This document shows, piece after piece, positions 18,150-64,000 of a stretch of 64,000 nucleotides of DNA. This DNA is from Naegleria gruberi (Eukaryota): the NCBI GenBank assembly GCA_000004985.1, contig GG738914.1. One strand, 5' to 3'. The translations under genes and the position numbers were made by a program. The first letter of the stretch is position 1. Each line of letters opens with the position of its first letter. The notes below the pieces were generated by a model. It ran no database searches and had not been told where the DNA came from. It saw only the letters and a program-made list of their open reading frames with translations.

Positions 18150-18183
18150 GATAGTGTTTTCCTATCATAATTTAAAATATTCA

Positions 18184-38434: not shown

Positions 38435-40916
38435 TTAACCAATTGTTTCATTATCAAATAATTTCTCTAATTCCCTTTGAAAATCTTTCATTAAAATTGG
38501 TTTTTTTAATACCAAGTCGAATCCAGATTCTAGTAATGATTCATCACTCCCAAACATTTGCAGTTACTGCTACAATCTTGCATTTTCTCTCCTTCTCAAT
38601 TGACCTAATGAGTTTGCAACATTCCTTTCCACAGATAATTGGCATTAGTAAGTCCAATAAGATTAAATCAAAATTCATTTCCTTTTTGAATGTTTCTAAA
38701 GCTTCTAATCCATCACATGCTGTTTGAGAATTAAATCCAAGATTGTTTGTCATTTTCTGTAAAACTTTTCTATTGACTTGGTTGTCATCAACAACAAGAA
38801 CCTTTTTGGAATGAAAAATTGAATTAGAATTGGAAGGAGCAATTGATGTGAGTTTGGTTGATGAAATTTTAGAGTGGATTGTGGTAATAAAGTGTTCAAT
38901 TCGAGTAGGTAGGTAAATGTCAGATGTTGACAATTGAGAGGAATGCCTGAGACTCGTAGAAATAATTATAGCATTCGTAGTGATTGGACTAAATGATTCA
39001 ATAGTAAATATTTTTGAATTAGATGGGTAAAATATCAGAACTTTTGATTGTGGAAGGGTATTTGATTGGAAATATTTTGGAATATTTCCAATAACATCAT
39101 TTAGAGATTTCAAAGTATTAACTTTCATCGAATTTACATTTGGATAGATGGATCTACACAGTTGCTCTAAAGAATAGGATAAATTATCATTCTCTTCTAG
39201 AATTAAAACTTGTCTGATTGAAAAGTTCTTAATTTCCTCAATTTCCTCAGAAATTCTTGAATCAATTTTCGCAATTTGAGACATGTTACATTTCTTTAGA
39301 GGAATGTAGATTGTTACTTTGGTTCCAACTCCAATTTCACTCTCAAAATTGATTTTTCCATTCATTAGCTCAATGAATTGATTCGAAAGTGATAAACCAA
39401 TTCCATGGCTTTCGTGGAATGAGCCTCTATTTTGATTAATAACAGAATAAGAGTAATACCTTTCAAAATCCATAGATGCACCATCAACAGTGTGAAATGG
39501 TCGGAATAAATTACGAATATCTTTTGTTGGTATTCCAATACCAGTATCCTGACAAGTTACTTTCAAACATATAAATTCCTCCGTATCAATAATGCTCCTT
39601 CCCTCTAAGAATGGATAATCTTCATCTGTTTTATCACAAACTGTGCAATTCAACATAATACTTCCTTTTTTAGTGTATTTGACAGAATTAGAAACAAAGT
39701 TGAGCAAGATTTGTGACAATCTAACATGATCTCCTATCAAATATAGTGGAACCTTATTTAAATCAAGAACAGATTGCAGCATCAGTCCTTTTTCTTTGGC
39801 TAAATTTGTGAAAACTGACAATATTGAATCAGTCAATTCTAAAATATTAAATGGAAAGTTGTTGAGCTTAATTTTACCAAGTTCTAAGTTGCTAATCTGA
39901 AGATAGTTCGAAAATACATCCATGAAAATCTTGGAATTGCTTTCAATATCATGTAATAATTCTAATTGAGCCTTCAAGTCGTTTTGCAACCTAGTGACAA
40001 ACTTTCCAAAACTCTCTATTTTCAATCCCACCAAATTTTGTAAAGTTTCCGAAATCTTTTTCATATCTAGTTGCATTAATTCAACAGTAACCAAAAGTCC
40101 ATGTAATGGATTTCTCAACTCATGAGACAAATTGGAAATAAATTTCGTCTTGGATTTGTTCATTTCTTTTTGATTGTAAAGAGCAATTCTGGAATTAATG
40201 GTTTCATCGTATTGTTGTTCCACTAAATCTTCATATACAAATCCAATAAATATGGGAGTGCTGAATGCTATGATCGGTTCCAACAGTTTGATTATTCTAT
40301 CTCTGTTCGAATCCCAAATATGTTGAAATACGTAAGGTGTTTGCCTTTCTAGATGCGTTAAGGTAAAGAACTTGCCTCCATTTCCTAAATGTTTCGAACT
40401 ATACTCAAAAGCAAGGTACTGTGCAACAATATTCGAAATGAAAATAACCAGGAAGTTCAATATCAACATTTTCTTTCTAAAATAGGAAGTATGAGTCAAG
40501 GTCAACAAGGCATACATATTTATCAACCAGATTGGAACTTCCCTTCCCAAATAAACCTGCATGGTCAATCTGACCATCGCATTTGCCACAGTTTTGGCTA
40601 AATACCCAAATTCCAAAGTATTCAAATGATTCAAATCTTTGCTCTTCAACACTGCTCTACCTGCAATTGCATTCACAATCAAATCAATCGCAACAAGTAT
40701 CAAGAAATTCACTCTCTCAATAAAATTCTCAATCCAAAATGAACAAATCAGAAGAATCATGACGAAATATCCCAAAAAAACTGGAGCCATTCGTTGTTGG
40801 ACACTATTAATCTTCATTTTGAATTTGATATTGTCCATGCATCTTCCCTGTTGCTCCTGCTTAGCAAAAAGATTCGGAAGAATTTGAGAAAGCTGTTTGG
40901 CGTAGTAATTGACCAT
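38435..40916 (-). CDS. Membrane-anchored hybrid histidine kinase (multi-TM sensor region, HisKA, HATPase_c, C-terminal receiver). An apparent 1-nt indel near 38568-38578 truncates the receiver domain
   Basis: ATG at 40916. H-box LSHELRNPLHGLL. N/G boxes (NSVKYTKKGSI, DTGIGIP, GIGLSLS). Receiver VLVVDDNQVNRKVL...DLILLDLLMPIICG...IVAVTAN, then stop. The +1 frame immediately continues MFGSDESLLESGFDLVLKKPILMKDFQRELEKLF, the canonical receiver C-terminus. Confidence 0.75.
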
Positions 40917-43385: not shown

Positions 43386-45302
43386 ATGATGGTGATGTTG
43401 ATGGATTGGCTGCTAGACTGGTTTCATCAGCAATACATGAATCAATTTAAAGTTCCATCATCTTCCCTCTCGAATATCAATCTTCCCTCTAATTTTAATA
43501 ATTACTATGAACTATTTGCTTCATCACAACAACAACAATATAATTCATCGAATAATGATGGTATTCAAGTGAATGGAACAAGATGCCATCCAATACTATT
43601 CAATTCTGGAGGTATTTCTATGGAACCTGAGAATCCAAAGTTCGAATATGGAATTTGTCCTGATACTATTTTCACAGTTATCTTTACAGGCATTACATTG
43701 GCCTTCTCTCTTGGCTTTCTAATATTTGGATTGATTGGAATTATTAAAAAACGAAAGAGTGGACACATCAAGGCAAGAAATCCAATTCTAATGGTTTCAA
43801 CCTTGGTGGCAAGCTTTTCGTTTGTTCTCATTTCGACGTTGAGGTACTTAGTTGGGAGAAAGATATTCCCGTGTGCATTGTTTGCATTGACTTTCTTCAT
43901 TATTGTTCCACTTATTATTATTCCAACTCTATTGAGATCTGTTAGATTGTATTGCATGTTTAAATTGAACATGATAAAGGTTGGAAATAAGAGAATGTCA
44001 ACTAGTAGTGTTCCAACAAACTTGGCAATGAATACTTCACAAGTATCAGCAACAGCTTTAAGACTAGATCTCAACAAAGTGGAACCTGTAACAACAACAA
44101 CAGACCAACAAACAGCACAAATGCAACAATCAGATTTTGCATCACCTGCAGATTCTTCAACAACAACAGATCAGACAACACAACTGCAACAATCAGAAAC
44201 ACCGACAAGTGGAAATGATTCACCTCAACCTGCTCAACAACAAACTTCCACTACACCACGTTCAGTCAAATTTCAGGAAGCAAAATCATCCAACATTGAT
44301 ACAGTGGAACCTTATGATTCTTGGAATGAAGTTTCGGATATTGATATTTTATCTGACATTGCTTCAGATTATGCCCCTCATATGATGGAAGAGGCAGATT
44401 TGAAGAAAATCAGAATATTGACCTTTCTTACTAGTAACAAATTTATTGTAATCACTTATGCTGTTCTCATTCCTATTCATCTTGCCTTTTGGCTTGTATT
44501 AGGAGGTATTGAGGAAGGAATATTTGAAAGAGATCCCACTCAGAAGAGAGTCTTTTTAGAAGATGGAGGATTACTCATGTTCTCACACGGTTGCATTACA
44601 AATTACAAAACTGTAATCATTATTGTTGTACAGGCTGTTCTCTACATACTGGCTGAGATTATTTTACTGATTTTTTGCGTATTTGCAGATAGAGATACAT
44701 GGAAAATCAAAATAGAAACATTCGTGGTAGTGATATTCCAATTTACCTTTACAGTTTTGTTTGGTTGTGAACAAATTAGTGTTATTTATACTCTCATTGA
44801 ATTCATCTTCCCCTCAGGAAACGTTATGGCGACTGCCACTGTAATTGAAGTATTTATTAGTGTAATTTTACCACTCATCTATTCCATCATTAGAGATGAG
44901 CGAGCAAAGAAGTATAGTGGTGAATCTGATTTAGAAAAGGTTTTGAAAAACAAGCGAATGTTCGCCAAATTATTGGAATTTTCAAGAAAATCATACTGTC
45001 CAGAGAATATTCTCTGCTTTAAAGATATTCAAATTTACAAACGATTGAAACAACCTGGAAAGAAAAAGATGGCAGACTATATCTGCCAAACTTATTTGCG
45101 TCAATTTGCTCCTCTAGAATTGAACATGCCTCACTCTGAAACAAGATATGATGATATTATGGGAAAGTTGGAAAGAAAGGAAACTTTGGAAAAGAACTTA
45201 TTTGATTATTTGAGTGTAACATGTCTCAACAATATGCAAGATGTATTTGAGAGATTGAAAGAAACCGATTCATCAGTTAAAGATTTTATCAATACAAAGT
45301 AA
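43386..45302 (+). CDS. Seven-transmembrane receptor fused to a C-terminal RGS (regulator of G-protein signalling) domain
   Basis: ATG at 43386. Seven hydrophobic segments between ~43660 and 44900. RGS-like C-terminus FAKLLEFSRKSYCPENILCFKDIQIYKRL...ICQTYLRQFAPLELNMP...DVFERLKETD. Confidence 0.7.
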   Translation: MMVMLMDWLLDWFHQQYMNQFKVPSSSLSNINLPSNFNNYYELFASSQQQQYNSSNNDGIQVNGTRCHPILFNSGGISMEPENPKFEYGICPDTIFTVIFTGITLAFSLGFLIFGLIGIIKKRKSGHIKARNPILMVSTLVASFSFVLISTLRYLVGRKIFPCALFALTFFIIVPLIIIPTLLRSVRLYCMFKLNMIKVGNKRMSTSSVPTNLAMNTSQVSATALRLDLNKVEPVTTTTDQQTAQMQQSDFASPADSSTTTDQTTQLQQSETPTSGNDSPQPAQQQTSTTPRSVKFQEAKSSNIDTVEPYDSWNEVSDIDILSDIASDYAPHMMEEADLKKIRILTFLTSNKFIVITYAVLIPIHLAFWLVLGGIEEGIFERDPTQKRVFLEDGGLLMFSHGCITNYKTVIIIVVQAVLYILAEIILLIFCVFADRDTWKIKIETFVVVIFQFTFTVLFGCEQISVIYTLIEFIFPSGNVMATATVIEVFISVILPLIYSIIRDERAKKYSGESDLEKVLKNKRMFAKLLEFSRKSYCPENILCFKDIQIYKRLKQPGKKKMADYICQTYLRQFAPLELNMPHSETRYDDIMGKLERKETLEKNLFDYLSVTCLNNMQDVFERLKETDSSVKDFINTK

Positions 45303-45315
45303 GACGAAACACAGT

Positions 45316-45738
45316 TTACTTTTTGAGAATATGATCTTGCATTGCAGAGGCAATTCTTCTAGCCTTACTCAATGCAATGAATCCATGACTAATTTCAATA
45401 GAGGATGAATTATTCATTATCAAACTAATGATACCACCATTCTCACCATTAACTGTAGAAGAAGTGTCAACTGCAACTGTTACATCTTTAATGTCAGCCA
45501 AATTATATTCCTCAGTAGATTCTCCACAACTTCCAAAAATACTTCCATAATTATGAACAACCAATAATTGTTGTTCCTCATCAATGGAATAGTCGGTTGA
45601 TGTTTGTTTGAGAGCAATGCAAAGGAATGGACATCCAATGCATGGACAAATAAAACAACAGACACATCCAACCATTCCAAAAATATTGGCCATAGTGTTT
45701 GGCTCGGCTTTGATGAAGAAGTTATTGTTGTTTGACAT
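45316..45738 (-). CDS. Small Cys-rich membrane-associated hypothetical protein
   Basis: ATG at 45738 (MSNNNNFFIKAEP). CC/CxC-rich hydrophobic stretch GMVGCVCCFICPCIGCPFLCIAL. 140 aa. Confidence 0.4.
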   Translation of the reverse strand: MSNNNNFFIKAEPNTMANIFGMVGCVCCFICPCIGCPFLCIALKQTSTDYSIDEEQQLLVVHNYGSIFGSCGESTEEYNLADIKDVTVAVDTSSTVNGENGGIISLIMNNSSSIEISHGFIALSKARRIASAMQDHILKK

Positions 45739-45999
45739 TTTTTTTGATTTTTGGTTGTTGATGAACTTTTGTGGCTATTTCAATCATTGCGCATGGAACT
45801 TTATTCGAAAGGGCACTTTGCTGACAAAACGTGTTCTTCACATATTGTTCAAGTCTTCTTTGAAAATATCCAAACAATCCTATTTTTTGATCAATTTTTG
45901 TAAACATTTGAAAAACATCACAATTTATCTAATTTCCATAATTGACAAATTTCCAAATCCAAAAGGCATTAGCAAATTGAAAAATTCCATCTTTAAAAA

Positions 46000-46575
46000 A
46001 TGTACACTCCTTCCATCACTGAAACCATCGAAAATCCACCACCAACATCAAAACCAATTAGTGGTGGAAGCAATGCAACCTTCGAACCATCATCTTCAAC
46101 ACCCTTCTCACCAACTGAACATGCAGTACAATTACAATATCCTCCACCAGAATCAAAATCAAATCCTAGTGATACTTATATAAGTGAACAGGTTCCTGTT
46201 TCGAAACCTGTTACTGCACTCATTGAGCCACCAGAATTAAAACCAGCAGTGGCTGCATCTGGTCAACCATCAAGTAATTCACCTCCCAAGACAGATATCA
46301 AAGATCCAAAAAGTTTACATCTTCCACATCTTCATGTACCTTCAATGTTTCATGATAAATCTGATCCTATTCATAAGGTTAATGAATATGATGTTGATGG
46401 AATAAGGCAGAGAAGGCTTATTTATGGAGCTGTATTGGATCGCTTTGTTTATGTCTGTTTGGATGTTGGTGCATTCCTTGGATACCTTTCGTATTTGTCC
46501 ATACGAAATATTCCAGAGCAACAAGTGCTAGAGCTAGAAGATATTCTCAGTTGGCTAAAATTACTTGGATTGTAA
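46000..46575 (+). CDS. Hypothetical P/S-rich protein
   Basis: ORF with ATG start (MYTPSITETIENPPPTSKP). Low-complexity N-terminal half. Coordinate taken from the ORF track. Confidence 0.4.
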   Translation: MYTPSITETIENPPPTSKPISGGSNATFEPSSSTPFSPTEHAVQLQYPPPESKSNPSDTYISEQVPVSKPVTALIEPPELKPAVAASGQPSSNSPPKTDIKDPKSLHLPHLHVPSMFHDKSDPIHKVNEYDVDGIRQRRLIYGAVLDRFVYVCLDVGAFLGYLSYLSIRNIPEQQVLELEDILSWLKLLGL

Positions 46576-46701
46576 TTTTGATATCCTTGTTGAGTGTTTT
46601 ATTGTTGGGTATTCTAGTTGCAATTGTTGTGCCTTCAGTTTATTCTGTTCGTCATCAAAAAATTTAACATTTGATTCGAATAAAAATTTTATTGTAAAGT
46701 G

Positions 46702-47274
46702 TTATCTGTTAAAAATTCCAATTGAAAATAGAACAATTAACACAATCATTACAGCAACCAAGAACATGAATACATTCGAAAATAATACCCCAATTGCAAT
46801 CCATCGACATCTCTCCGAAAATGCATAAACACGTGGACTTTCGGTTGGATTCGATCTAAATCTAAAATAAACTACACTAAATGGAATAAAAGCCAATGGA
46901 ACCATGCAAAACATTGCCAAAATTATGGAAATCAAAATTGCTAAATGATAACTCGATCTTGCATTGTTTCCTTCCACATCAATCACTTGTCCTTTTCCTG
47001 TTGGTTTTTGAATGACTGGTGGTGGTTGTGTTATTTGGGATTTGGAAGGAATTTGTAATTCTGCATCTGCTGGTTTTATTTCTTCTTTGGTTGTGGGGGT
47101 TGAGATTTCTTTGGCATTAAGAGATTCTTCACTTTTATTCGAAAGATTTTCTGCTGGCAAACTTCCATTCGAAGCTTTGGCTGGAGTTTCCTTTATGGCA
47201 GTTTCTGCAATTACTTTAATTTGCAGAGGTGAAAGTTGAGCGAATTGTTCAGGATTCAAAACTACGGTCGTCAT
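46702..47274 (-). CDS. Small membrane protein (two C-terminal TM helices) with a charged N-terminal region
   Basis: ATG at 47274 (MTTVVLNPEQFAQLSPLQIKV). TM segments LAILISIILAMFCMVPLAFIPFSVV and IAIGVLFSNVFMFLVAVMIVLIVLFSIGIF. Confidence 0.4.
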   Translation of the reverse strand: MTTVVLNPEQFAQLSPLQIKVIAETAIKETPAKASNGSLPAENLSNKSEESLNAKEISTPTTKEEIKPADAELQIPSKSQITQPPPVIQKPTGKGQVIDVEGNNARSSYHLAILISIILAMFCMVPLAFIPFSVVYFRFRSNPTESPRVYAFSERCRWIAIGVLFSNVFMFLVAVMIVLIVLFSIGIFNR

Positions 47275-47741
47275 GAGTTTCGAATAGTTTCAATTTTTTT
47301 TATTGTTGATTTCGTCGGTATGCAAATCTGGTGTGAAGGTAAAAGGAAATGTTCTTTTTGTAAATTTTCTTACAATGGAAATCGATCATGAGTGCAGGAG
47401 GATTCTGTCGCTGATGCTAAACTTTCAATTTGTGTAGAAACTCCTTTCGAATTGTTATCCTAAACTTTTTGTATCGAGCATGATCTTTCTTGAACCTTAA
47501 TCTCAATCATTCAACATCTTTGTTAACGGTTTCAATAGTTTCCTTATTAATCTTTCAATATATTTGAAGTTTCCAATAACAAACAATGTTTACAATATCT
47601 AATTAGAAACCTAAGGAGTCAATTTTTTTAATGTGCTTCCACTCCTAGCAGAACTTTCAGAATCTCCGGTAAATTATGTAATCAGAACATCNNNNNNNNN
47701 NNNNNNNNNNNNNNNNNNNNNNNNNNNNNNNNNNNNNNNNN

Positions 47742-48165
47742 CGGTTTATTAGACAAGTTGACTTTTGACAGAGTCATTTTCACAGGACATTCTCAAGGAG
47801 GTGCCGTCGCCATGCTATCCATCTATGATTTCCTCTTACACTATCCTAAATACTCCTCCAAAATTGAGTTAATCACTTTTGGTCAACCAAGAGTAGGTCA
47901 ATCAAACTTTATCGAAAAATTCAAACAAATTCTTTCCCCGCCAAAATATACTCGTCTCGTTACAATTTTTGTAAATAAAGACGCAAAAGGAAATGGAAAA
48001 AGCGTTGGTGAAGATTTGGTCTCTCAAGTTCCGCCGCCATTTCTTGGATTTAAACACGCGGGAAGTAAGGTAAATGTTGTGTGCACTGCGTTGAGTATTA
48101 CAAAGTGTCATGATATGAATACTTATTTGGATGGTGTTAAGGCTGGAAAATATGTTGAGAATTGA
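47742..48165 (+). CDS. Class-3 (fungal-type) lipase, C-terminal part only. The 5' end lies in the 47693-47741 N-gap
   Basis: FTGHSQGGAVAML (GHSxGG nucleophile elbow), ITFGQPRVGQ (lipase_3 motif), then ..DGVKAGKYVEN and stop. Confidence 0.6.
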
Positions 48166-48236
48166 GTTGTTTGAATTAATTTTTGAAAATATACGAAAGG
48201 TCTGTAATAAAAATTAATTTAAATTTTTCAAAAAAA

Positions 48237-50018
48237 ATGGAGGTCGAATCTGAAGAATTATTCGAATCATTTTTTTATTATTCAAAATCGGAGAAAATTC
48301 AACAAGTAATTTTACACGAAAATCAATTATCACCACTCGGATCAGATGTTATGCAATTAATTCTTTCCTTTCTGCAACCGATTCCTTTCTTATTTCAACT
48401 AAAACGAGTTTCGTCTAATTGGAATAAGTTATGCGAAAGTTGCATGAAAGAAAGTTGTACAGAATTATATTGGGATGAAAAAACAGCAAGTTCTCTACTT
48501 GGAAATCTAAAGAAACATGCAAAAAAGTTGTGGCAATTTCCAGAATTTTATGAAGATGAAAATTTATTAACAAATTCAAAATCTGAATCAGAAAGTACTT
48601 TTGAATTTGTAAAGAATTCAATAATGCTGCCATTTAAAAGTGGAAATTCAATTGAATACATGATGTTTGGATTGTTTAGGAGTGTATTATTCAAATTTGG
48701 CAAGTTGAGCTCACTAATTTTACATAATGTTAAGGTGAATGCTGGATTGCTTTATTTATTATTTGTGGAATGGGGAAAGGAGTTGGAACGAATCAAATTC
48801 ATTAATTGTATTGTTGATTTTGGTTTGCCGAAACAAATTACTTGTCAAGATGATGTCAATTCCCATAATAGTTATTGGCTTGTTTCAGATTTGAATCAAA
48901 TACAGAGCTTGAAATTTGAGATTCCAAGTCAATTACCTGATCTTACAATTCAAAAAAGTCTTTTAATTGAAAATTTGAAGAAAGCCAAGATGAAAGATAT
49001 CTCATTTAGCAATTGTTCAATTGATAGATCACTTGTTTTGAATCATACGCATGCTTCTCACTTTTCTCTGGAATTAATGTGCTTTTTTTCATCAATTGGA
49101 AGTTTGGAAACTGCTTATTATGATTGTTTTGAATTTAATGAAACTTTTGATCAAGACAGGACCTTCTTTAAAAAGCTTGTGCCAAATGTCAAGTTTAATA
49201 TTCCATTCTTCCTTGCAGTTAAGCAACTGTTGGACATTTTACCATTTGAAAAAGTTGTAGAATATTTCAAATTTGACATGGAACGTAATTATTCGTTAGT
49301 GAAGAATAGAATGAATGCTTATCAAAAGAGAAAAATACGAAATAAGGAAGAATTAATCAATTTTTACTATGAAGTTTTTCCCTCATTTGCATCATTCCAT
49401 GTTAGGTGCTCTCCTTTTATATTTGATTTATATTACAAAGATTATAGAGGATTCAACATGCTTCAATCGATATTGTCTTCTATTTATTTTAGTAGAAAAC
49501 ATCAAACTCATCTGCTTGATTTCATTTTTGATTATTTTTCTTTTTACAATGAAGATACAAACTCTGTAAAAGAAAGTACTGAGATTTTAAATGAATTATT
49601 TGCATCAAATAATCGAGTGGACGGGAGAAATTCGACCTTTATTGTAATTTCATATGAACTGACATTCATGTTTGAAAAGATGGTTAAACATAAAGTTCAT
49701 TTCAATGCCAAAGATAGAGAAGGATCAACCATAGCTCATTATCTAGCTCAGGTAGGAAATGGTTCAACATTACAAAAATTAATTGAGATATTGGACAAAC
49801 TACCAACTGTGGAAGAGAGGAAATACTTTTTAGATTTAAACATTCCCAATAATCAAGGACAAACTGCAGCTATGATTTGTTACAATGAGAAGAAATTTGA
49901 ATTATTGGAATATTTGATGCAAATTGCTCCAAGATATGGAATTCTTGCTGCAAATGGCATGCCATTACAAAAAGATAATGTTTCAGTACTGGAACAACAG
50001 TCTTGCTCTTTAATGTAA
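48237..50018 (+). CDS. F-box-like / ankyrin-repeat protein
   Basis: ATG at 48237 (MEVESEELFESFF). F-box-like DVMQLILSFLQPIPFLFQLKRVSSNWNKLC. C-terminal ankyrin-like repeats (GSTIAHYLAQVGNGSTLQKLIEIL, NNQGQTAAMICYNEKKFELLEYLM). Confidence 0.5.
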   Translation: MEVESEELFESFFYYSKSEKIQQVILHENQLSPLGSDVMQLILSFLQPIPFLFQLKRVSSNWNKLCESCMKESCTELYWDEKTASSLLGNLKKHAKKLWQFPEFYEDENLLTNSKSESESTFEFVKNSIMLPFKSGNSIEYMMFGLFRSVLFKFGKLSSLILHNVKVNAGLLYLLFVEWGKELERIKFINCIVDFGLPKQITCQDDVNSHNSYWLVSDLNQIQSLKFEIPSQLPDLTIQKSLLIENLKKAKMKDISFSNCSIDRSLVLNHTHASHFSLELMCFFSSIGSLETAYYDCFEFNETFDQDRTFFKKLVPNVKFNIPFFLAVKQLLDILPFEKVVEYFKFDMERNYSLVKNRMNAYQKRKIRNKEELINFYYEVFPSFASFHVRCSPFIFDLYYKDYRGFNMLQSILSSIYFSRKHQTHLLDFIFDYFSFYNEDTNSVKESTEILNELFASNNRVDGRNSTFIVISYELTFMFEKMVKHKVHFNAKDREGSTIAHYLAQVGNGSTLQKLIEILDKLPTVEERKYFLDLNIPNNQGQTAAMICYNEKKFELLEYLMQIAPRYGILAANGMPLQKDNVSVLEQQSCSLM

Positions 50019-50045
50019 TTAATGAAGAGCAATTTTTTGATCTAT

Positions 50046-51121
50046 TTAAAAGAGGCCACCAAAAACAGGGCCTTCTTCCTCTTCATCTACTGCTATGGCA
50101 ACGAAACTAGGGTGTTCTTGGTCCTCTTCATCGACTACTACTCCTTCATTTGGAGATTTGAAAATATTGTTAGCATTATCAGTTGGGGAAAGCTTGTTTA
50201 CAATATTCTTCATTCCAAATTTGTTACAAGCACACAAGAGTGCTTGTTTGGTATCTTCATCCAATTTACTTCCAATAATTCCATAATTTAATCAAGTATA
50301 TGTGAAAAAATTAATGGATTACAATCAATGAAATAAATTGGATCATCAAACTGTTTTGAAGCTGGTGTTTGATAACATGGATATTCACCATTGAACATTT
50401 TCTTAAACAAGTTATCAGGTTCTTGTTGATTGGAGGTGAAATCTCCCAACGAAACTGTCATTATAGTTCCTCTCACATTCAAGTGAATTGGTTTGTTGCT
50501 ATTTTCGAGCTTTTCTCTTGCCAATACTTGATTTTCAAATTCGTTCATTCTAGTTTCCAATAATTCTTCTTTCTTTCTAAATTGGTCTATTAATTGTTGT
50601 TCAAGGGATGCCAATCTATCTTTTGAAACAGTCAATAATTGTTCATTTTCAGTTTGTAATGCTGCCATCCGTTCCAGGTGTTCTCTTTCCAATTTACTCT
50701 TGAATTCTTCGACTTGTTGATATGCTTCATGGAGTGGACAGTACTTTTCTTGATGGTCTTTCAACTCACCTCTCAATACAATATTCTTACACATGCCACA
50801 CTTGACTTTCAATTTATCCAACATGTTTCGAATAGTTTTGGCACTTGCTGCACAATTCTTCTTGAATCCACCTTCGTTACACAATGGACAAACCGTTACA
50901 TTCTCAATACATTTGGCACAGAAAGTATTTCCGCATGAATTATGGGAAATTGGATCCACGAAAGGATGTAAACAAATAGAACAAATTAAATCTTCATCAA
51001 TTTCCTTCTCTACATAATCGAATAGCACTTCTTCTTTCTCCTCCTTGATCAATGGTGTGTTGGAGGAAGTTATTGACGAGTTGGCTATTAGCTTGCGTTG
51101 TTTGAGTTTTTTTAACCCCAT
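50046..51121 (-). CDS. RING-finger / TRAF-type zinc-finger / coiled-coil / BTB(T1, KCTD-like) protein. An apparent 1-nt deletion in a T-run near 50285-50290 splits the BTB domain
   Basis: ATG at 51121. RING CSICLHPFVDPISHNSCGNTFCAKCIENVTVCPLC. TRAF-zf-like KCGMCKNIVLRGELKDHQEKYCPL. Coiled coil. T1-like IHLNVRGTIMTVSLGDF...YFIDCNPLIFSHILD, then stop. The -1 frame continues LNYGIIGSKLDEDTKQALLCACNKFGMKNIVNKL (T1 C-terminal consensus). 'gatTTaaat' in place of 'gatTaaat' would fuse them. Confidence 0.6.
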
Positions 51122-52198
51122 AGTGTCTATTTTTTTGTGATTGTAATTCTAATTTTTGATTTGTGACACGAACACTTGTCATTGGGATTTACGGAATCAG
51201 ATTGTGATCAACAGTTGGTAAACCAAGGACAATAATGATACATTCTTTTACAACGAAATTAAATCGCCAAATCAACCAAGAAAATTATTAGGTAGAGTGG
51301 ATAGTCAAACATGCTTCTTGTTTCCGAGTGTAAGAAAATCTACATCAACCTGAAATATTTACAAGTTATCGTGTACATCCAATCATAGCTTGACCAAAAT
51401 TGATCAAATAAAGTGCTACTGTTGACCATTCCGAACAATCATCAATATGTTTTCCCATCAATTTTATAATAGTATTTGTAAATTCAATTTTAGTGATTTT
51501 TGGTGAACTCATAATCAATGCTGAATCTACAACTGACAAGTTGAGAAGGAACGTAGTATCGACGATATTCCAAGTTGTAACTTTCCATCTTCAAAAATAA
51601 TTTCCAATTTCATGATAATAATCCAACAATAAAAATTTCTATTATTACTACTATTTAAATAATGTTGAGATGATGATGTGAAAGTTTGGTGCTTTCATCA
51701 TGATGTAAAACCACTCCGAAAATCATCATGTCCTCCTTGCCACATTTCCTTTAATATTTTTTGATAATTTTTTTTATTATTAAAAAATATCAAACTCTAA
51801 CTTGGAAGCAACAACAGCTGCAATGGTCATCACGAAATAATAATTTCCAGATATTTGCTCCTTTCATCATCATTGCTTCAAATAATATATCCAATATTGA
51901 TGGAAATATTACAGTTAAAAAACCATCATGATGAATTTCTTTTAGGGTTCCTCTCGCACTCCAATGCGAGTTCCGATACAAAATTATCTTTGGAAGGTTC
52001 ACAATAGTGTTTGATGGATGAACTGAAGAATTCACATAGTAATAGAAGACTTTTTTGACATTGTTGATGCTTATACCCTACTGTAATTGAAGCCTAAAAA
52101 ATCACATTTCCAAAGTAAGGTAGGAGTCAAACGTGGATGGATATCTCAATTGTCCATTTTTCAAAAGTCCTTTTAACCAACAGAAAAACATCAAAAAA

Positions 52199-54121
52199 AT
52201 GTCAATGAAAGAATATATAGAGCTCATCTTTTTATCTTCGTATCAGAATCCTTCACTAATAGTCAATGGTCATGCTTCATCAACAGCGCCATTTTCGTCA
52301 TCTTTACATAACGTTTTATTGGAAAGTTTGAATAGCTCAACAACAATAACCAACACAACAAACAATGGTACATCAAACTTTTGTGATCCGTCACTGTTTA
52401 ATACACCTTGGAGTAGAGAAGTGAATGGAAGTGTCATTTACGGGCTTTGTCCAGATACTTATTTCTCAATGGCTTTTTGTTTGGCATTTGTTGTACTTTA
52501 TCTGTTAGTTGTCATTTTGAGTGGTGTTGGAGTTTATTGGAAGAGGAAGAGTGGTCATATTGTGGCTAGGAATCCAATCTACCTCTACTTTACATTAGGA
52601 GCTGCACTATTCTTTGTGATATCTCTTACTATGAGAGTGATTGTGGGCAGGAAAATATATCCGTGTGGATTGTTGACTGCTTCCTTTTTTACATTCCCTC
52701 CTGCAATTTGTTTACCTACCATCTTTAGAATGATGAGAACATTCTTCATGTATAAGATTAATTTACAAAAGGCCAAATTATTCGATTCCTCTACTGGCAC
52801 CAATAAGCCGGAGGGGAAAGATTTTGAATTATTTAAAGGAGCAGTAGAACCTGAAATCAAACATGAAACGCCAACACCAGGAATTGATTTTTCACAAATA
52901 TTTCATGCTGAGACTTCTCCTTCTGTTCACCAAAATAATCCATTCGTAGGAAGTCCTAGTTCAACAGTTGACTCACTCAGTAGTACCACAGATGATGTGG
53001 ATGACGTTTCGAATTCCAATACTGGAATTGATTCAGAATCTATTGCTGATGTTTCAACATGGAATTTTACAGAACTCAAAGAAATTCAATCACTCAGATC
53101 TGAAATTAGAAAGTTGAAGATTTACAATTTTGTGACCAGTTTGAAATTTATTACCATTTTTTACATTCTGGGTTTTATATTTGGACTTGTAGTATGGCTG
53201 ATTATTGGAGGTATAGAAGAAGCTTTATATTCATTCAATACTAGTCCAGATAAGAAACGTATCTTCCTCTATGATGGTGGATTGTTTGTTTTTGATCATG
53301 GTTGTGGAATGACATCAAACTCTATCATTATCGTTGGTATTGAAGCAATTTTATACATTATTCTAGAGTTTATCTGTTTCATAATGTGTGTCAGAGCTGA
53401 TAAAGATACTTGGGGTATCAAGTTAGAATCTCTCACATTGATTGTAATTCAGATTCTTAGTGCAATAATTTTCCTAGTGGCAGGAAATATAGAATTCATT
53501 TTCAACTTTACAGAATATTATTTCCCATATGGATTTGTATTGTGGGGTTACATGCTGATTGAAATTATTGTTTGTGTGACACTTCCAGTTCTCTATGCCA
53601 TTGTAAGAGATAATAAGGACAAGGTTCAACAAGCAGCTCAATTGAGTACTTTGGAAAAGATTTTGAAAAATAAGAAAACCTTCCAAGTTATGCTTGATTT
53701 TGCAAGAAGAAGTTATTGTACTGAAAGTATATTGTGTTGGAGGGATATTCAGAGATATAGATTGGCAAGAAAGAAAAGTCATAGAAAAAAGGCAATCATT
53801 CACATACTTGGAGTTTATTTGACATTTGGAGCTCCCTTGGAATTAAACATGCCAAATGTAGAGAAACTGAAACAGGAAATTCTAGCTCAAATTACTGGAG
53901 GAAAATTTATAGTAACAGAAGGATTGATTGTTGATGCCAATGAAATTTCCAAAATTATGAATGGTAATGCACTTGTACAACTTCACACAAACTTGTTCCA
54001 AGCTGTACAGGAGCATTGTTTGAATGATATGAGTGATTTATTTGAAAGATTGAAGAATTCTAATAAGGAGATTGCAGAGATTGTCAAGTCACATAAGGAA
54101 CTTTCACAAACCGTGAACTAA
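52199..54121 (+). CDS. Seven-transmembrane receptor fused to a C-terminal RGS domain, paralog of 43386-45302
   Basis: ATG at 52199 (MSMKEYIELIF). Shared blocks with the paralog: GxCPDTxF, KRKSGHIxARNPI, GRKIxPCxL, GGIEE, RxFLxDGGL, DTWxIKxE. RGS block FQVMLDFARRSYCTESILCWRDIQRYRLA...LELNMP...DLFERLKNSN. Confidence 0.7.
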   Translation: MSMKEYIELIFLSSYQNPSLIVNGHASSTAPFSSSLHNVLLESLNSSTTITNTTNNGTSNFCDPSLFNTPWSREVNGSVIYGLCPDTYFSMAFCLAFVVLYLLVVILSGVGVYWKRKSGHIVARNPIYLYFTLGAALFFVISLTMRVIVGRKIYPCGLLTASFFTFPPAICLPTIFRMMRTFFMYKINLQKAKLFDSSTGTNKPEGKDFELFKGAVEPEIKHETPTPGIDFSQIFHAETSPSVHQNNPFVGSPSSTVDSLSSTTDDVDDVSNSNTGIDSESIADVSTWNFTELKEIQSLRSEIRKLKIYNFVTSLKFITIFYILGFIFGLVVWLIIGGIEEALYSFNTSPDKKRIFLYDGGLFVFDHGCGMTSNSIIIVGIEAILYIILEFICFIMCVRADKDTWGIKLESLTLIVIQILSAIIFLVAGNIEFIFNFTEYYFPYGFVLWGYMLIEIIVCVTLPVLYAIVRDNKDKVQQAAQLSTLEKILKNKKTFQVMLDFARRSYCTESILCWRDIQRYRLARKKSHRKKAIIHILGVYLTFGAPLELNMPNVEKLKQEILAQITGGKFIVTEGLIVDANEISKIMNGNALVQLHTNLFQAVQEHCLNDMSDLFERLKNSNKEIAEIVKSHKELSQTVN

Positions 54122-55720
54122 TTGTCAGATTTATTGGCACAATATGGACAAAAGTAATCAACTATTAACAAACTTAGGGTAATTGTTTGAGAATAATATT
54201 GATCCAATATCTTTTACAATTCATTTTACAATTGAAGTTACCATATCTCTAAAAAGGTTTTTGAAGTCAAGTGACTTGTTGACCTTCATATTTTACAAGT
54301 CCTTGGAGCGCAACAGGAATGGTGAGGCATGGAAAAGGTACGGTGTGTAATAAAAATAGAATTGGCAAGGAACAGCGAAGGTTTGGTGACTTATTTTTAA
54401 GAAACGACCAAGGTACGGCAGAAAATAGGAACGGGAATAGGTATGCAAACAAGGCATGGATATTTTTAAAATTTTTACAAGTCAGTTCCACCATTGAAAT
54501 CCTTGCTAATTTTCTATAAAAGTACAAATAACACTNNNNNNNNNNNNNNNNNNNNNNNNNNNNNNNNNNNNNNNNNNNNNNNNNNNNNNNNNNNNNNNNN
54601 NNNNNNNNNNNNNNNNNNNNNNNNNNNNNNNNNNNNNNNNNNNNNNNNNNNNNNNNNNNNNNNNNNNNNNNNNNNNNNNNNNNNNNNNNNNNNNNNNNNN
54701 NNNNNNNNNNNNNNNNNNNNNNNNNNNNNNNNNNNNNNNNNNNNNNNNNNNNNNNNNNNNNNNNNNNNNNNNNNNNNNNNNNNNNNNNNNNNNNNNNNNN
54801 NNNNNNNNNNNNNNNNNNNNNNNNNNNNNNNNNNNNNNNNNNNNNNNNNNNNNNNNNNNNNNNNNNNNNNNNNNNNNNNNNNNNNNNNNNNNNNNNNNNN
54901 NNNNNNNNNNNNNNNNNNNNNNNNNNNNNNNNNNNNNNNNNNNNNNNNNNNNNNNNNNNNNNNNNNNNNNNNNNNNNNNNNNNNNNNNNNNNNNNNNNNN
55001 NNNNNNNNNNNNNNNNNNNNNNNNNNNNNNNNNNNNNNNNNNNNNNNNNNNNNNNNNNNNNNNNNNNNNNNNNNNNNNNNNNNNNNNNNNNNNNNNNNNN
55101 NNNNNNNNNNNNNNNNNNNNNNNNNNNNNNNNNNNNNNNNNNNNNNNNNNNNNNCCAACCTTTTATGATTCACTCCTTCAAGAGTGATTCAAAAATTATC
55201 AAACTCATTGTGAACATTACACAATGATATTAAAATAATAAAATTCTTGTTTTTTCTTGTTATTTCATTTCTTTCACCTTAAATCGAACAATTAACCTTA
55301 TTTCCTTAAACATCATTAAGATCAAATTGAATTTCAAAGATAACCAACTTTTTCAACATCTACACCTTATAGGGATCACACTCATATCAATTAATCCATA
55401 TTTTTCATTTTCAGTAAAAAATCAAAATTTGAACTTTCCAAAGTTTACTATTTACCTGAATTGTTTGAGAAGGAAACTTCTCATAAAAAGAAGGGTAGTT
55501 TCTCAACAGTGTTTTAATCAACTAAGTCAAATTATTTCATGTCATTCTTAAATTTGAGACAGAAAGAGAGAAATCTTTGATTTTAGTGAATATTCCACAA
55601 CAGAGGTGTTGTGTTTGTGAATTTATTTCCATTTTAAATTTTTCCATTTTGGATTTATTATAGAATGATACATTAGTATTTCCCTTAATTCCATTCTTGC
55701 TCCGTCTCTTACTGCTGACT

Positions 55721-57172: not shown

Positions 57173-57435
57173 AATTTTGCCGATATTTTAAAAATAGATT
57201 GTAAAGTGTTCATATCATCACCACTGCCAGAGAAAAGTAGAAAAACAACAACAAAAAAATATCAGTAAGNNNNNNNNNNNNNNNNNNNNNNNNNNNNNNN
57301 NNNNNNNNNNNNNNNNNNNNNNNNNNNNNNNNNNNNNNNNNNNNNNNNNNNNNNNNNNNNNNNNNNNNNNNNNNNNNNNNNNNNNNNNNNNNNNNNNNNN
57401 NNNNNNNNNNNNNNNNNNNNNNNNNNNNNNNNNNN

Positions 57436-59318: not shown

Positions 59319-59877
<559 letters not shown>

Positions 59878-60366
59878 NNNNNNNNNNNNNNNNNNNNNNN
59901 NNNNNNNNNNNNNNNNNNNNNNNNNNNGACCATGATGGTTGAGGGAAGAAATCTTTAAATATGAAAGTTAAAATAAATTTGATATTCGATGTATACTCAC
60001 CAAATGGAACATTTTCATGTCAGGATTCAATATGTTTTGATGAGAAACTCAAAAGTTATAGTTGACCTATTGTACCTCACAACTTCCCTTTTCCCTCTAT
60101 ACTTTTATATCTACAGACTTGAACTTTTGAAATTTGATATGAAAGTGATTATAGATGTTGTTAATGATGATATATACTATATAATCTCATTAAAGGATTT
60201 GAAATTATCATTCTTCCTATAGTTTCATTTTACAAATTTTAATCTGCCACTATTTACAAAGTTAATATTTTATAAATTGAAAAACTAAATATAACACGTT
60301 GTTCTACTCATCATTTCCAATCGAATGATATAAAATTTAATGATATTTGAATAAGTTTATAATTTT

Positions 60367-60943
60367 GGGCTAGGGTTTGAAGATTGGGTTTGGAAGAATT
60401 CTATTTTTAGAATTGGGTTTGGGTTTGGGTTTGGGTTTGGGTTTGGGTTTAGGTTTGGGTTTGGGTTTGGGTTTGGGTTTGGGTTTGGGTTTGGGTTTGG
60501 GTTTGGGTTTGGGTTTGGGTTTGGGTTTGGGTTTGGGTTTGGGTTTGGGTTTGGGTTTGGGTTTGGGTTTGGGTTTGGGTTTGGGTTTGGGTTTGGGTTT
60601 GGGTTTGGGTTTGGGTTTGGGTTTGGGTTTGGGTTTGGGTTTGGGTTTGGGTTTGGGTTTGGGTTTGGGTTTGGGTTTGGGTTTGGGTTTGGGTTTGGGT
60701 TTGGGTTTGGGTTTGGGTTTGGGTTGGGTTTGGGTTTGGGTTTGGGTTTGGGTTTGGGTTTGGGTTTGGGTTTGGGTTTGGGTTTGGGTTTGGGTTTGGG
60801 TTTGGGTTTGGGTTTGGGTTTGGGTTTGGGTTTGGGTTTGGGTTTGGGTTTGGGTTTGGGTTTGGGTTTGGGTTTGGGTTTGGGTTTGGGTTTGGGTTTG
60901 GGTTTGGGTTTGGGTTTGGGTTTGGGTTTGGGTTTGGGTTTGG
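60367..60943 (+). repeat. Telomere-like hexamer array (TTTGGG)n with the G-rich strand on +. Degenerate proximal units 60367-60414, then about 88 perfect units running into the 1.8-kb N-gap
   Basis: gggctagggtttgaagattgggtttggaag... then gggttt x n. Single 5-nt variant unit (gggtt) at ~60721, which is what flips the ORF-track translation from GLGL to WVWV. Confidence 0.8.
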
Positions 60944-63540: not shown

Positions 63541-64000
63541 TTGCTTGGGTTTGGGTTGGGTTTGGGTTTGGGTTTGGGTTTGGGTTTGGGTTTGGGTTTG
63601 GGTTTGGGTTTGGGTTTGGGTTTGGGTTTGGGTTTGGGTTTGGGTTTGGGTTTGGGTTTGGGTTTGGGTTTGGGTTTGGGTTTGGGTTTGGGTTTGGGTT
63701 TGGGTTTGGGTTTGGGTTTGGGTTTGGGTTTGGGTTTGGGTTTGGGTTTGGGTTTGGGTTTGGGTTTGGGTTTGGGTTTGGGTTTGGGTTTGGGTTTGGG
63801 TTTGGGTTTGGGTTTGGGTTTGGGTTTGGGTTTGGGTTTGGGTTTGGGTTTGGGTTTGGGTTTGGGTTTGGGTTTGGGGTTTGGGTTTGGGTTTGGGTTT
63901 GGGTTTGGGTTTGGGTTTGGGTTTGGGTTTGGGTTTGGGTTTGGGTTTGGGTTTGGGTTTGGGTTTGGGTTTGGGTTTGGGTTTGGGTTTGGGTTTGGGT
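63541..64000 (+). repeat. Terminal telomere-like (TTTGGG)n array extending to the window end
   Basis: About 76 units in the same orientation as the first array. Variant units gggtt at ~63551 and ggggttt at ~63871. Preceded by 780 bp of unique AT-rich sequence. Confidence 0.8.

What the first reader, a model, noticed from the sequence alone, without database searches (positions are those of the whole stretch)
43386..54121. Two paralogous 7TM-RGS receptor genes in tandem orientation 9 kb apart
Both genes (43386-45302 and 52199-54121, + strand) encode an N-terminal seven-helix membrane domain fused to a C-terminal RGS domain. They share many collinear sequence blocks, at roughly 40-50% identity by eye. 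7TM-RGS fusions combine receptor and GAP in one polypeptide and are restricted to particular lineages. A local duplicate pair separated by unrelated genes suggests an old tandem duplication that is now diverging.
Basis: partly seen in the sequence, partly recalled or inferred. Interest (0 to 1): 0.55.

Follow-up and report, generated by a model that had tools for sequence, protein, structure and literature searches.

The report
Two Naegleria 7TM-RGS receptor paralogues
Two intact genes 9 kb apart in this Naegleria gruberi scaffold each encode a GPCR-like seven-helix membrane domain fused to a G-protein-deactivating RGS domain; they are ordinary, anciently diverged members of the large 7TM-RGS family already described in Naegleria.

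Summary

They belong to a heterolobosean family: 193 cluster representatives, at least 9 paralogues in N. gruberi, and 66 of 82 long members carry RGS. Naegleria 7TM-RGS proteins are published: 28 in N. fowleri, with GAP activity shown for RGS domains of other members (PMC9283941).

The most likely function is a receptor-GAP that switches off Galpha at the membrane under control of an extracellular cue. This is inferred, not shown.

The 'old tandem duplication' reading is plausible but unproven. The two genes fall in different subfamilies, are not each other's closest paralogues, and their linkage is not seen in another Naegleria-like assembly.

Two modest new points are a weak but repeated class C (7tm_3) affinity of the 7TM domain and a 100-130 aa disordered insert in intracellular loop 2.

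Verdict: real, correctly read, new members of a known kind, low interest.

The parts
43386..45302 (+). Gene 1: 7TM-RGS protein, subfamily B (638 aa from this ATG; annotated N. gruberi protein P0008 starts at 43389, 637 aa)
   Evidence: Single intact ORF; 100% identical to an N. gruberi predicted protein; collinear with gene 2 at E 5e-105.
43386..43667 (+). Gene 1 N-terminal extracellular segment (about 93 aa) with 2 N-glycosylation sequons and two family-invariant cysteines (C66, C90 in P0008 numbering)
   Evidence: Invariant columns in alignment A6; sequon count. An N-out topology is inferred from the sequons and from basic residues on the predicted cytoplasmic loops.
43668..44912 (+). Gene 1 seven-helix GPCR-fold domain. 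TM helices in P0008 numbering: 94-124, 132-155, 162-204, 350-381, 406-433, 438-473, 476-508
44001..44390 (+). Gene 1 intracellular loop 2 insert (about 130 aa, low complexity, rich in S/T/Q, predicted disordered)
   Evidence: pLDDT below 50 for residues 200-332. Compact relatives lack the insert: 7TM span ranges from 256 to 626 aa across the family.
44685..44717 (+). Gene 1 short intracellular loop 3 motif ADRDTWKIKIE, the most conserved motif of the Naegleria-type members
   Evidence: D434, D436, W438, I440, K441 and E443 are invariant in A6; sequence confirmed.
44916..45299 (+). Gene 1 RGS domain. Residues at Galpha-contact positions: E539, N540, N579, D618, R622 (P0008 numbering)
   Evidence: Pfam RGS 24.1 bits against a 23.9 cutoff; family RGS HMM covers residues 510-637; profile versus PDB RGS domains; residue positions.
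52199..54121 (+). Gene 2: 7TM-RGS protein, subfamily A (640 aa, identical to N. gruberi P0001)
   Evidence: Single intact ORF; 100% match.
52199..52459 (+). Gene 2 N-terminal extracellular segment (87 aa) with 4 N-glycosylation sequons and conserved C62 and C84
52460..53641 (+). Gene 2 seven-helix GPCR-fold domain. TM helices: 88-118, 126-149, 156-196, 315-347, 373-400, 405-440, 445-481. C156 (top of TM3) and C369 (ECL2) are invariant across the whole family
52787..53086 (+). Gene 2 intracellular loop 2 insert (about 100 aa, disordered, S/T/D-rich, ending in the conserved acidic DSESIADVSTWN motif)
   Evidence: pLDDT below 50 for residues 197-295; alignment A1.
53396..53428 (+). Gene 2 intracellular loop 3 motif ADKDTWGIKLE
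   Evidence: D401, D403, W405, I407, K408 and E410 are invariant in A1; sequence confirmed.
53651..54106 (+). Gene 2 RGS domain (E509, S510, N550, D613, R617), with a roughly 24-residue insertion relative to its paralogues
   Evidence: Pfam RGS 32.6 bits; alignments to RGS10, RGS3 and RGS5; insertion visible in A1 columns 860-885; residue positions.

Best explanation
Both genes encode membrane receptor-GAPs of the Naegleria 7TM-RGS family.

Proposed mechanism:
- The N-terminus (about 90 aa, glycosylated, with conserved cysteines) and the extracellular loops face outward.
- Seven helices form a GPCR-type bundle, held by the canonical TM3-ECL2 disulfide.
- The RGS domain follows TM7 within about 10 residues and therefore sits at the cytoplasmic face of the membrane.
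- There it binds the transition state of a Galpha subunit and accelerates GTP hydrolysis, switching the G protein off.
- An extracellular cue sensed by the 7TM part would change the availability of that GAP activity (by conformation, clustering or internalisation). This sets the level of active Galpha, as proposed for plant AtRGS1 acting on self-activating Galpha.
- The long disordered, S/T- and acid-rich insert in intracellular loop 2 is a likely regulatory or phosphorylation site. The short invariant loop 3 motif (D-x-D-T-W-x-I-K-x-E) is a likely coupling surface.

Origin: the two genes are ancient paralogues (subfamilies A and B) of a heterolobosean gene family. The family grew by repeated duplication, some of it tandem. 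A local origin for this pair is more likely than not.

Shown here: domain content, seven helices, GPCR fold, conservation of Galpha-contact residues, family size and taxonomic distribution.

Inferred: topology, GAP activity of these two proteins, ligand control, plasma-membrane location and mode of duplication.
For: RGS domain:
- Pfam RGS passes in both proteins.
- The family RGS profile hits many solved RGS domains (E 9e-8 to 4e-3).
- Foldseek matches RGS4 with probability 0.96.
- In the HMMER alignments, the family-invariant E and N line up with the 'SEEN' and 'EVN' motifs of RGS3 and RGS5, and D/R line up with the 'DSYxRF' motif of RGS10. By established knowledge of the RGS4-Gialpha1 complex these are E87, N128, D163 and R167, the Galpha-contact residues.

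7TM domain:
- Seven helices in both AF2 models.
- Invariant cysteines at the top of TM3 and in ECL2 across 26 diverse members.
- N-glycosylation sequons concentrated before TM1.

Fusion under selection:
- 66 of 82 long members carry Pfam RGS.
- RGS starts just after TM7 in nearly all full-length members.
- Protein similarity is retained with no DNA similarity.

Literature:
- N. fowleri encodes 28 7TM-RGS proteins. RGS domains of three of them accelerate GTP hydrolysis on Nf Galpha2, 3, 5 and 7, including self-activating subunits, through a canonical interface (PMC9283941).
- N. gruberi has 229 RGS proteins (PMC3971589).

Duplication:
- A head-to-tail pair 127 bp apart exists in N. lovaniensis.
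- Chance proximity is estimated at 0.016-0.17 expected pairs.
Against: - No biochemical or expression data exist for these two proteins.
- The N. fowleri members tested are much larger (RGS fragments lie at residues 1036-2459) and are described as having EGF/lectin/GPS ectodomains. They may carry a different 7TM type.
- Gene 1 passes the Pfam RGS cutoff by only 0.2 bits.
- Gene 2 and most subfamily-A members have Ser instead of Asn at the RGS4-N88 position.
- AF2 confidence is modest (mean pLDDT 58-59; gene 2 RGS domain about 40-69 by 10-residue block).
- Topology rests on sequons and charge distribution, not on a dedicated predictor.
- Whether the 7TM domain also acts as a GEF is unknown.
- For the origin: the two genes are not each other's closest paralogues, and their linkage is absent in the one other assembly that could be checked.
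Confidence: 0.72

Rival explanations
1. Self-limiting GPCRs. The 7TM domain is a genuine ligand-activated exchange factor (GEF) for slow-exchanging Galpha subunits. The tethered RGS domain terminates the signal it has just started, giving short pulses. This differs from an AtRGS1-type receptor, which lacks GEF activity.
For: - The 7TM domain has a full GPCR fold with the canonical disulfide.
- Intracellular loop 3 is short and invariant, and loop 2 is long. In class C GPCRs these loops carry G-protein coupling (established knowledge).
- Naegleria has both slow-exchanging and self-activating Galpha subunits, and both kinds interact with 7TM-RGS proteins (PMC9283941).
Against: - No GEF activity is known for any 7TM-RGS protein.
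- The only characterised precedent, AtRGS1, works as a GAP on a self-activating Galpha (PMC3386157).
- Nothing in the sequence discriminates between the two models.
Confidence: 0.18
2. The RGS domain is a non-catalytic Galpha- or partner-binding module, as in GRKs, axin or sorting nexins. The proteins would then be scaffolds or effectors rather than GAPs.
For: - The RGS domain is divergent: Pfam 24-33 bits, and single-sequence PDB hits reach only E about 0.01.
- Ser replaces Asn at the N88-equivalent position in gene 2.
- There is a 24-residue insertion in the gene 2 RGS domain.
- Some RGS domains are known to have lost GAP activity (PMC3971589).
Against: - The equivalents of E87, N128, D163 and R167 are invariant in all 7 family RGS sequences.
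- The best PDB matches are canonical R4- and R12-type GAP domains, not GRK or axin.
- Naegleria RGS domains use the canonical interface (PMC9283941).
Confidence: 0.07
3. On origin: the 9 kb proximity is not a relic of tandem duplication. Two long-separated family members were brought together by rearrangement or dispersed duplication, or they simply lie close by chance in a genome with many copies.
For: - The genes belong to different subfamilies, and gene 1 ranks about 18th among relatives of gene 2.
- At least five unrelated ORFs lie between them.
- In Logan SRR29240419 the gene-1 orthologue keeps its neighbour (a homologue of window ORF 46705-47289) but has no subfamily-A gene on its contig, which extends about 9.3 kb downstream. 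The subfamily-A gene there is solitary in 18 kb.
- There is no flank synteny with the N. lovaniensis pair.
Against: - Both genes are on the same strand.
- The expected number of chance pairs within 9 kb is only 0.016-0.17.
- Tandem duplication is documented for the family.
- Loss of linkage in one other species is equally consistent with a later rearrangement in that species.
Confidence: 0.3

Closest known systems
Naegleria fowleri 7TM RGS protein family (Bosch, Jeck and Siderovski 2022, PMC9283941)
   Same: - Same genus and same architecture: seven TM helices followed by a C-terminal RGS domain.
- A named N. fowleri homologue of this 7TM family exists (P0021, FDP41_012977, annotated as an RGS domain-containing protein).
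- RGS domains of that family are proven GAPs for Nf Galpha subunits.
   Different: - The four members studied are large (RGS fragments at residues 1036-2459) and are described with EGF, lectin and GPS ectodomains.
- The window proteins are about 640 aa with only an approximately 90 aa N-terminus.
- No protein over 800 aa appears among the best 150 relatives of this 7TM domain, so the tested members may carry a different 7TM type.
- Neither window protein nor a direct orthologue has been assayed.
Arabidopsis AtRGS1 (prototype plant 7TM-RGS receptor-GAP)
   Same: - Overall architecture and proposed logic: a membrane 7TM domain tethers an RGS GAP next to Galpha, and GAP availability is the regulated step (PMC3386157).
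   Different: - No sequence relationship of the 7TM domains was found. All named relatives are Heterolobosea, apart from one Clastostelium transcript.
- A direct comparison could not be run because the AlphaFold database library was unavailable.
- The window proteins have a 100-130 aa insert in intracellular loop 2.
Class C GPCR transmembrane domain (Pfam 7tm_3; GPR156, GPRC5D, mGlu, GABA-B, TAS1R, GPR158)
   Same: - The family consensus hits 7tm_3 only, collinearly over profile positions 10-228 of 251, at E 8e-7.
- Four compact family members hit 7tm_3 below threshold.
- Both share the TM3-ECL2 disulfide, a short conserved loop 3 and a long variable loop 2.
   Different: - Neither window protein hits 7tm_3 even at E <= 1, and the consensus score of 29.4 bits is below the 33.5 cutoff.
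- Family profiles find no class C sequence in the PDB.
- There is no Venus-flytrap or cysteine-rich ectodomain.
- No known class C receptor carries a fused RGS domain; GPR158 recruits RGS7 as a separate subunit.

Membership tests
RGS domain (Pfam PF00615) | Score at or above the curated Pfam gathering threshold (23.9 bits) | tested here: met
   Gene 1 scores 24.1 bits (marginal) and gene 2 scores 32.6 bits. 66 of 82 long family members also pass at E <= 1e-3.
RGS domain (Pfam PF00615) | Homology to solved canonical RGS domains and an all-helical RGS fold | tested here: met
   The family profile hits RGS22, 3, 5, 16, 10, 2, 18, 4, 14, 6 and 12 (E 9e-8 to 8e-3). Foldseek matches RGS4 with probability 0.96 and TM-score 0.57 on the target, although the E-value is only about 1. 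AF2 shows a helical bundle after TM7.
RGS domain (Pfam PF00615) | Galpha-contact residues retained (RGS4 E87, N88, N128, D163, R167) | tested here: met
   The E, N, D and R equivalents are invariant in all 7 family RGS sequences and align to the SEEN, EVN and DSYxRF motifs. The N88 equivalent is Asn in gene 1 and Ser in gene 2. RGS4 numbering comes from established knowledge, not from a printed RGS4 alignment.
RGS domain (Pfam PF00615) | GTPase-accelerating activity on a Galpha subunit | not testable with these tools
   Requires recombinant protein and a GTP hydrolysis assay. It has been shown only for other Naegleria 7TM-RGS members (PMC9283941).
7TM-RGS receptor-GAP architecture (AtRGS1 / Naegleria 7TM RGS) | Seven transmembrane helices N-terminal to the RGS domain | tested here: met
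   [not shown]
7TM-RGS receptor-GAP architecture (AtRGS1 / Naegleria 7TM RGS) | RGS domain on the cytoplasmic side (N-terminus outside) | tested here: inconclusive
   N-glycosylation sequons cluster before TM1 (4 in gene 2, 2 in gene 1), and basic residues flank the predicted cytoplasmic loops (read from the sequences). No dedicated topology predictor was available.
7TM-RGS receptor-GAP architecture (AtRGS1 / Naegleria 7TM RGS) | Sequence homology of the 7TM domain to AtRGS1 | not tested
   The AtRGS1 sequence or model could not be reached (afdb50 unavailable). No plant protein appeared among the 30 relatives whose sources were looked up.
7TM-RGS receptor-GAP architecture (AtRGS1 / Naegleria 7TM RGS) | Partner Galpha that is self-activating, with the GAP step being the regulated one | not testable with these tools
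   Self-activating Galpha5 and Galpha7 exist in N. fowleri (PMC9283941). The partners of these two proteins are unknown.
Class C GPCR 7TM domain (Pfam PF00003 7tm_3) | Pfam 7tm_3 score at or above the gathering threshold (33.5 bits) | tested here: not met
   Neither window protein hits at E <= 1. The family consensus scores 29.4 bits, E 8e-7. Compact members score 16.8-26 bits.
Class C GPCR 7TM domain (Pfam PF00003 7tm_3) | Closest structural similarity to class C transmembrane domains | tested here: inconclusive
   [not shown]
Class C GPCR 7TM domain (Pfam PF00003 7tm_3) | Large extracellular Venus-flytrap and/or cysteine-rich ligand-binding domain (absent in some orphans such as GPRC5 and GPR156) | tested here: not met
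   Only 87-93 residues precede TM1, and no Pfam domain is found there.
Tandem gene duplicates | Same orientation and physical adjacency | tested here: inconclusive
   The genes are on the same strand, but 6.9 kb and at least five unrelated ORFs lie between them.
Tandem gene duplicates | The two copies are each other's closest relatives in the genome | tested here: not met
   Gene 2 is closer to N. gruberi P0157 (49%), P0004 (48%) and P0011 (45%) than to gene 1 (33%). The genes belong to different subfamilies.

The most novel reading that the evidence does not exclude
The 7TM domain of this heterolobosean family may be a divergent class C-type (7tm_3) GPCR domain that became fused to RGS independently of the plant AtRGS1 lineage, and probably independently of the adhesion-like, GPS-bearing 7TM-RGS proteins of Naegleria. 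Receptor-GAPs would then have arisen several times by fusing RGS to different GPCR classes. In that case the family's long intracellular loop 2 and invariant loop 3 would be inherited class C coupling features, now used to position a tethered GAP.
Probability: 0.4. Interest if true: 0.4.

Novelty: new member of a known kind. Interest (0 to 1): 0.25.

Why it matters
It matters little on its own. The pair adds two uncharacterised members to a family already catalogued in Naegleria, whose biochemical logic (an RGS GAP tethered to a 7TM domain acting on Galpha) has been demonstrated for relatives.

Its modest value is threefold:
- It delimits a compact, Heterolobosea-wide subfamily with short ectodomains: 193 cluster representatives from Naegleria, Willaertia, Acrasis and Pharyngomonas.
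- It gives the first hints that this 7TM domain is class C-like.
- It supplies small intron-free (single-ORF) genes (about 640 aa) that would be easier to express than the 1,200-2,500 aa N. fowleri proteins studied so far. These could be used to ask whether a 7TM-RGS protein is a pure GAP receptor or also a GEF.

Tried and rejected
- Foldseek against the AlphaFold database, which would have allowed direct comparison with AtRGS1 and N. fowleri models, was unavailable.
- HMM searches of the PDB with the 7TM profiles A2 and A5 found no GPCR. Single compact members P0136 and P0152 hit only RGS domains. A sequence-level class C link therefore rests only on sub-threshold Pfam hits.
- A third family member in the window was sought and rejected. 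tblastn and family HMMs find only the two genes. The weak tblastn hit inside ORF 18088-22344 is spurious: that ORF is an EGF/REJ protein with a single C-terminal TM helix and no RGS domain.
- The N. gruberi genome is not in the gene-position index. The positions of the other N. gruberi paralogues could not be examined, including P0157 and P0011, which are both reported on a 938,756 bp contig.
- The last word-indexed profile search (A5) returned only 9 proteins, so it could not give a full count of N. gruberi paralogues.
- Anantharaman et al. 2011 and Bradford et al. 2013 are not held in the paper library.
- Antisense ORFs inside the two genes (for example 43565-44077 and 52585-52860) and their tblastn 'hits' in other loci are shadows of the real genes.
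- dN/dS was not attempted, because at about 50% amino-acid identity to the nearest orthologues the synonymous sites are saturated.

Full report
**Observation.** The window is a Naegleria gruberi scaffold. Both ORFs are intact single reading frames on the + strand at the stated coordinates.

Pfam RGS (PF00615) is found in both. Gene 1 scores 24.1 bits against a cutoff of 23.9. Gene 2 scores 32.6 bits.

BLASTP between the two gives 33% identity over 613 collinear residues, E 5e-105. Within the conserved blocks the identity is 44% (TM1-3), 38% (TM4-7) and 41% (RGS). There is no nucleotide-level similarity.

The genes are 8,813 bp apart start to start, with a 6,896 bp gap. The gap holds unrelated ORFs: three small ORFs without Pfam domains, a Lipase_3 fragment next to an assembly gap, an F-box/ankyrin gene and a RING-finger gene. 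No third copy lies in the window.

**RGS domain.** Because gene 1 only just passes Pfam, I built a profile of the RGS regions of seven family members (A3) and searched the PDB. It hits RGS22 (E 9e-8), RGS3, RGS5, RGS16, RGS10, RGS2, RGS18, RGS4, RGS14, RGS6 and RGS12.

In the printed alignments:
- the family-invariant Glu falls on the second Glu of the 'SEEN' motif;
- the invariant Asn of 'LELNMP' falls on the Asn of 'KEVN';
- the invariant Asp and Arg of 'DLFERL' fall on the 'DSYxRF' motif.

From established knowledge of the RGS4-Gialpha1 complex these are E87, N128, D163 and R167, the residues that grip the Galpha switch regions. The N88 position is Asn in gene 1 (N540) and Ser in gene 2 (S510). 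The domain therefore looks like a working, canonical Galpha-binding RGS box rather than a degenerate one. Gene 2 carries a roughly 24-residue insertion inside it.

**Seven-helix domain.** Hydropathy gives seven segments in gene 1. In gene 2 it gives six above the 1.6 threshold, plus TM3 at 1.58.

AlphaFold2 models built on family alignments give seven long helices in each protein. TM pLDDT is about 70-90, although the overall mean is only 58-59 because of disordered regions.

Foldseek was much weaker.

Across 26 diverse family members the only invariant residues include a Cys at the top of TM3 ('FPC') and a Cys in extracellular loop 2 ('GC'). These are the positions of the canonical GPCR disulfide.

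N-glycosylation sequons cluster in the 87-93 residues before TM1. Basic residues flank the loops predicted to be cytoplasmic. This argues for N-terminus out and RGS in the cytosol.

Two anatomical features stand out:
- A disordered, S/T/Q/D-rich insert of about 100-130 residues between TM3 and TM4 (intracellular loop 2). It is absent from compact relatives; the 7TM span ranges from 256 to 626 residues across the family.
- A very short, nearly invariant loop 3: ADRDTWKIKIE in gene 1 and ADKDTWGIKLE in gene 2.

**The family.** A profile of the 7TM part alone (A2) was scored against 1.84 billion representative proteins. It found 193 representatives at E <= 1e-3, 130 at E <= 1e-10 and 82 at E <= 1e-30.

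Of 82 long members, 66 carry Pfam RGS. In nearly all full-length members the RGS domain starts just after TM7. The fusion is thus the ancestral, conserved state of this family.

Named members are all Heterolobosea, with one exception:
- at least nine N. gruberi paralogues on at least seven scaffolds;
- several in N. lovaniensis;
- one named N. fowleri protein (FDP41_012977);
- Willaertia magna, Acrasis kona and Pharyngomonas kirbyi;
- the exception, a Clastostelium transcriptome sequence.

Neither window protein matches any Pfam 7TM family, and the 7TM profiles find no GPCR in the PDB by sequence. However, four compact members give sub-threshold, full-length, collinear hits to 7tm_3 (16.8-26 bits against a 33.5 cutoff). 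The family consensus sequence hits 7tm_3 and no other 7TM family, at 29.4 bits and E 8e-7.

**Relationship of the two genes.** A neighbour-joining tree of the TM4-7 block separates subfamily A (gene 2 with P0002-P0007) from subfamily B (gene 1 with P0009 and P0010), with bootstrap 1.0 and 0.995.

Gene 1 is only about the 18th closest representative to gene 2. N. gruberi paralogues on other scaffolds are closer: P0157 at 49%, P0004 at 48% and P0011 at 45%.

In N. lovaniensis two subfamily-A genes (C9374_011232 and 011233) are head-to-tail, 127 bp apart, without flank synteny to the window. Tandem duplication therefore does occur in this family.

In a Naegleria-like assembly (Logan SRR29240419), the gene-1 orthologue keeps a homologue of window ORF 46705-47289 as its neighbour. 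It has no subfamily-A gene on its contig, which extends about 9.3 kb downstream. The subfamily-A gene on another contig is alone in 18 kb.

A local origin therefore remains more likely than not. If the pair is a tandem duplication, it predates the A/B split and much of the family's radiation.

**Mechanism and comparison with what is known.** The literature already covers this kind of protein.
- De Mendoza et al. 2014 count 229 RGS proteins in N. gruberi and note 7TM-RGS architectures in many bikonts (PMC3971589).
- Bosch, Jeck and Siderovski 2022 describe 28 7TM-RGS proteins in N. fowleri. They show that RGS domains of three of them accelerate GTP hydrolysis on Nf Galpha2, 3, 5 and 7, including self-activating subunits, through the canonical interface (PMC9283941).
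- The members they tested are large (RGS fragments at residues 1036-2459) and are described with EGF, lectin and GPS ectodomains. Those proteins are unlike the roughly 640-residue proteins here.

The best-supported reading is that both genes encode receptor-GAPs. A GPCR-fold sensor holds a canonical RGS domain against the inner face of the membrane. There it deactivates Galpha, with the extracellular cue modulating GAP availability as proposed for AtRGS1 (PMC3386157).

GAP activity, topology, ligand control and location are inferred for these two proteins. The main functional rival is a self-limiting GPCR that also has GEF activity, and it cannot be excluded from sequence.

**Verdict.** The finding is real and essentially correctly read, but it is ordinary for this genome: two anciently diverged members of a known, expanded family. 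I rate it a new member of a known kind with low interest.

The most novel reading not excluded is that this family represents an independent fusion of RGS to a class C-type 7TM domain.

**Dead ends.**
- The AlphaFold database fold library was unavailable.
- N. gruberi is not in the gene-position index.
- The last word-indexed search was uninformative.
- Two key papers are not held.

Noticed in passing
window 60413-60943 and 63545-64000: There are two long, nearly perfect (TTTGGG)n arrays on the + strand: 88 and 76 copies at 99% match. The first abuts an N gap (60944-62759). The second runs to the end of the window. With the G-rich strand reading 5'->3' toward the right end, this looks like a telomere-type repeat at a scaffold end. 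Two chromosome-end contigs may have been scaffolded together.
   Followed up: partly
window 38544-40916 (-): A hybrid histidine kinase (HisKA + HATPase_c + response-regulator receiver) lies about 2.5 kb upstream of gene 1. It is another signalling gene, but there is no evidence of a functional link.
   Followed up: no
window 46702-47274 (-); L002 5416-5700: This 190-aa ORF has no Pfam domain, and from its sequence it ends in a hydrophobic, membrane-anchor-like C-terminus. A homologue (42% identity) sits next to the gene-1 orthologue in a Naegleria-like assembly (Logan SRR29240419), in the opposite relative orientation. It is the only microsynteny found around either gene.
   Followed up: partly
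L001 10001-14855 (N. lovaniensis PYSW02000004.1): Two subfamily-A 7TM-RGS genes (C9374_011232, 796 aa; C9374_011233, 714 aa) lie head-to-tail, 127 bp apart. The second is interrupted by a gap of about 190 bp in the tblastn alignment, consistent with an intron. The related Logan contig L004 carries only the first gene.
   Followed up: partly
L002 2645-4725: The gene-1 orthologue in Logan SRR29240419 was called as two genes: a 463 aa 7TM part and a 166 aa RGS part. tblastn shows they are one gene split by a short intron or frameshift. Family members counted as lacking RGS may therefore be gene-calling artefacts.
   Followed up: partly
window 18088-22344 (+): A 1,418-aa ORF carries EGF-like repeats, a REJ domain and a single C-terminal TM helix. 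It resembles the adhesion-type ectodomains described on some N. fowleri 7TM-RGS proteins, but it has no 7TM or RGS part. ORFs 1366-4428 and 12216-14852 also carry EGF_2 domains, the latter together with RCC1 repeats.
   Followed up: partly
window 47692-47741, 54536-55154, 57270-57435, 59878-59927, 60944-62759: Five N runs (assembly gaps) are present. The Lipase_3 ORF (47758-48165) and the actin ORF (59325-59942) are truncated at gaps. The stretch between the two 7TM-RGS genes therefore contains one unresolved gap.
   Followed up: no
gene 2 aa 278-289 (window about 53030-53065) and equivalents in alignment A1: A conserved acidic and Ser/Thr motif (D-x-E-S-x-x-D-V-S-T-W-N) sits at the end of the disordered intracellular loop 2 insert in subfamily A. 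It is a candidate phosphorylation or trafficking signal.
   Followed up: no
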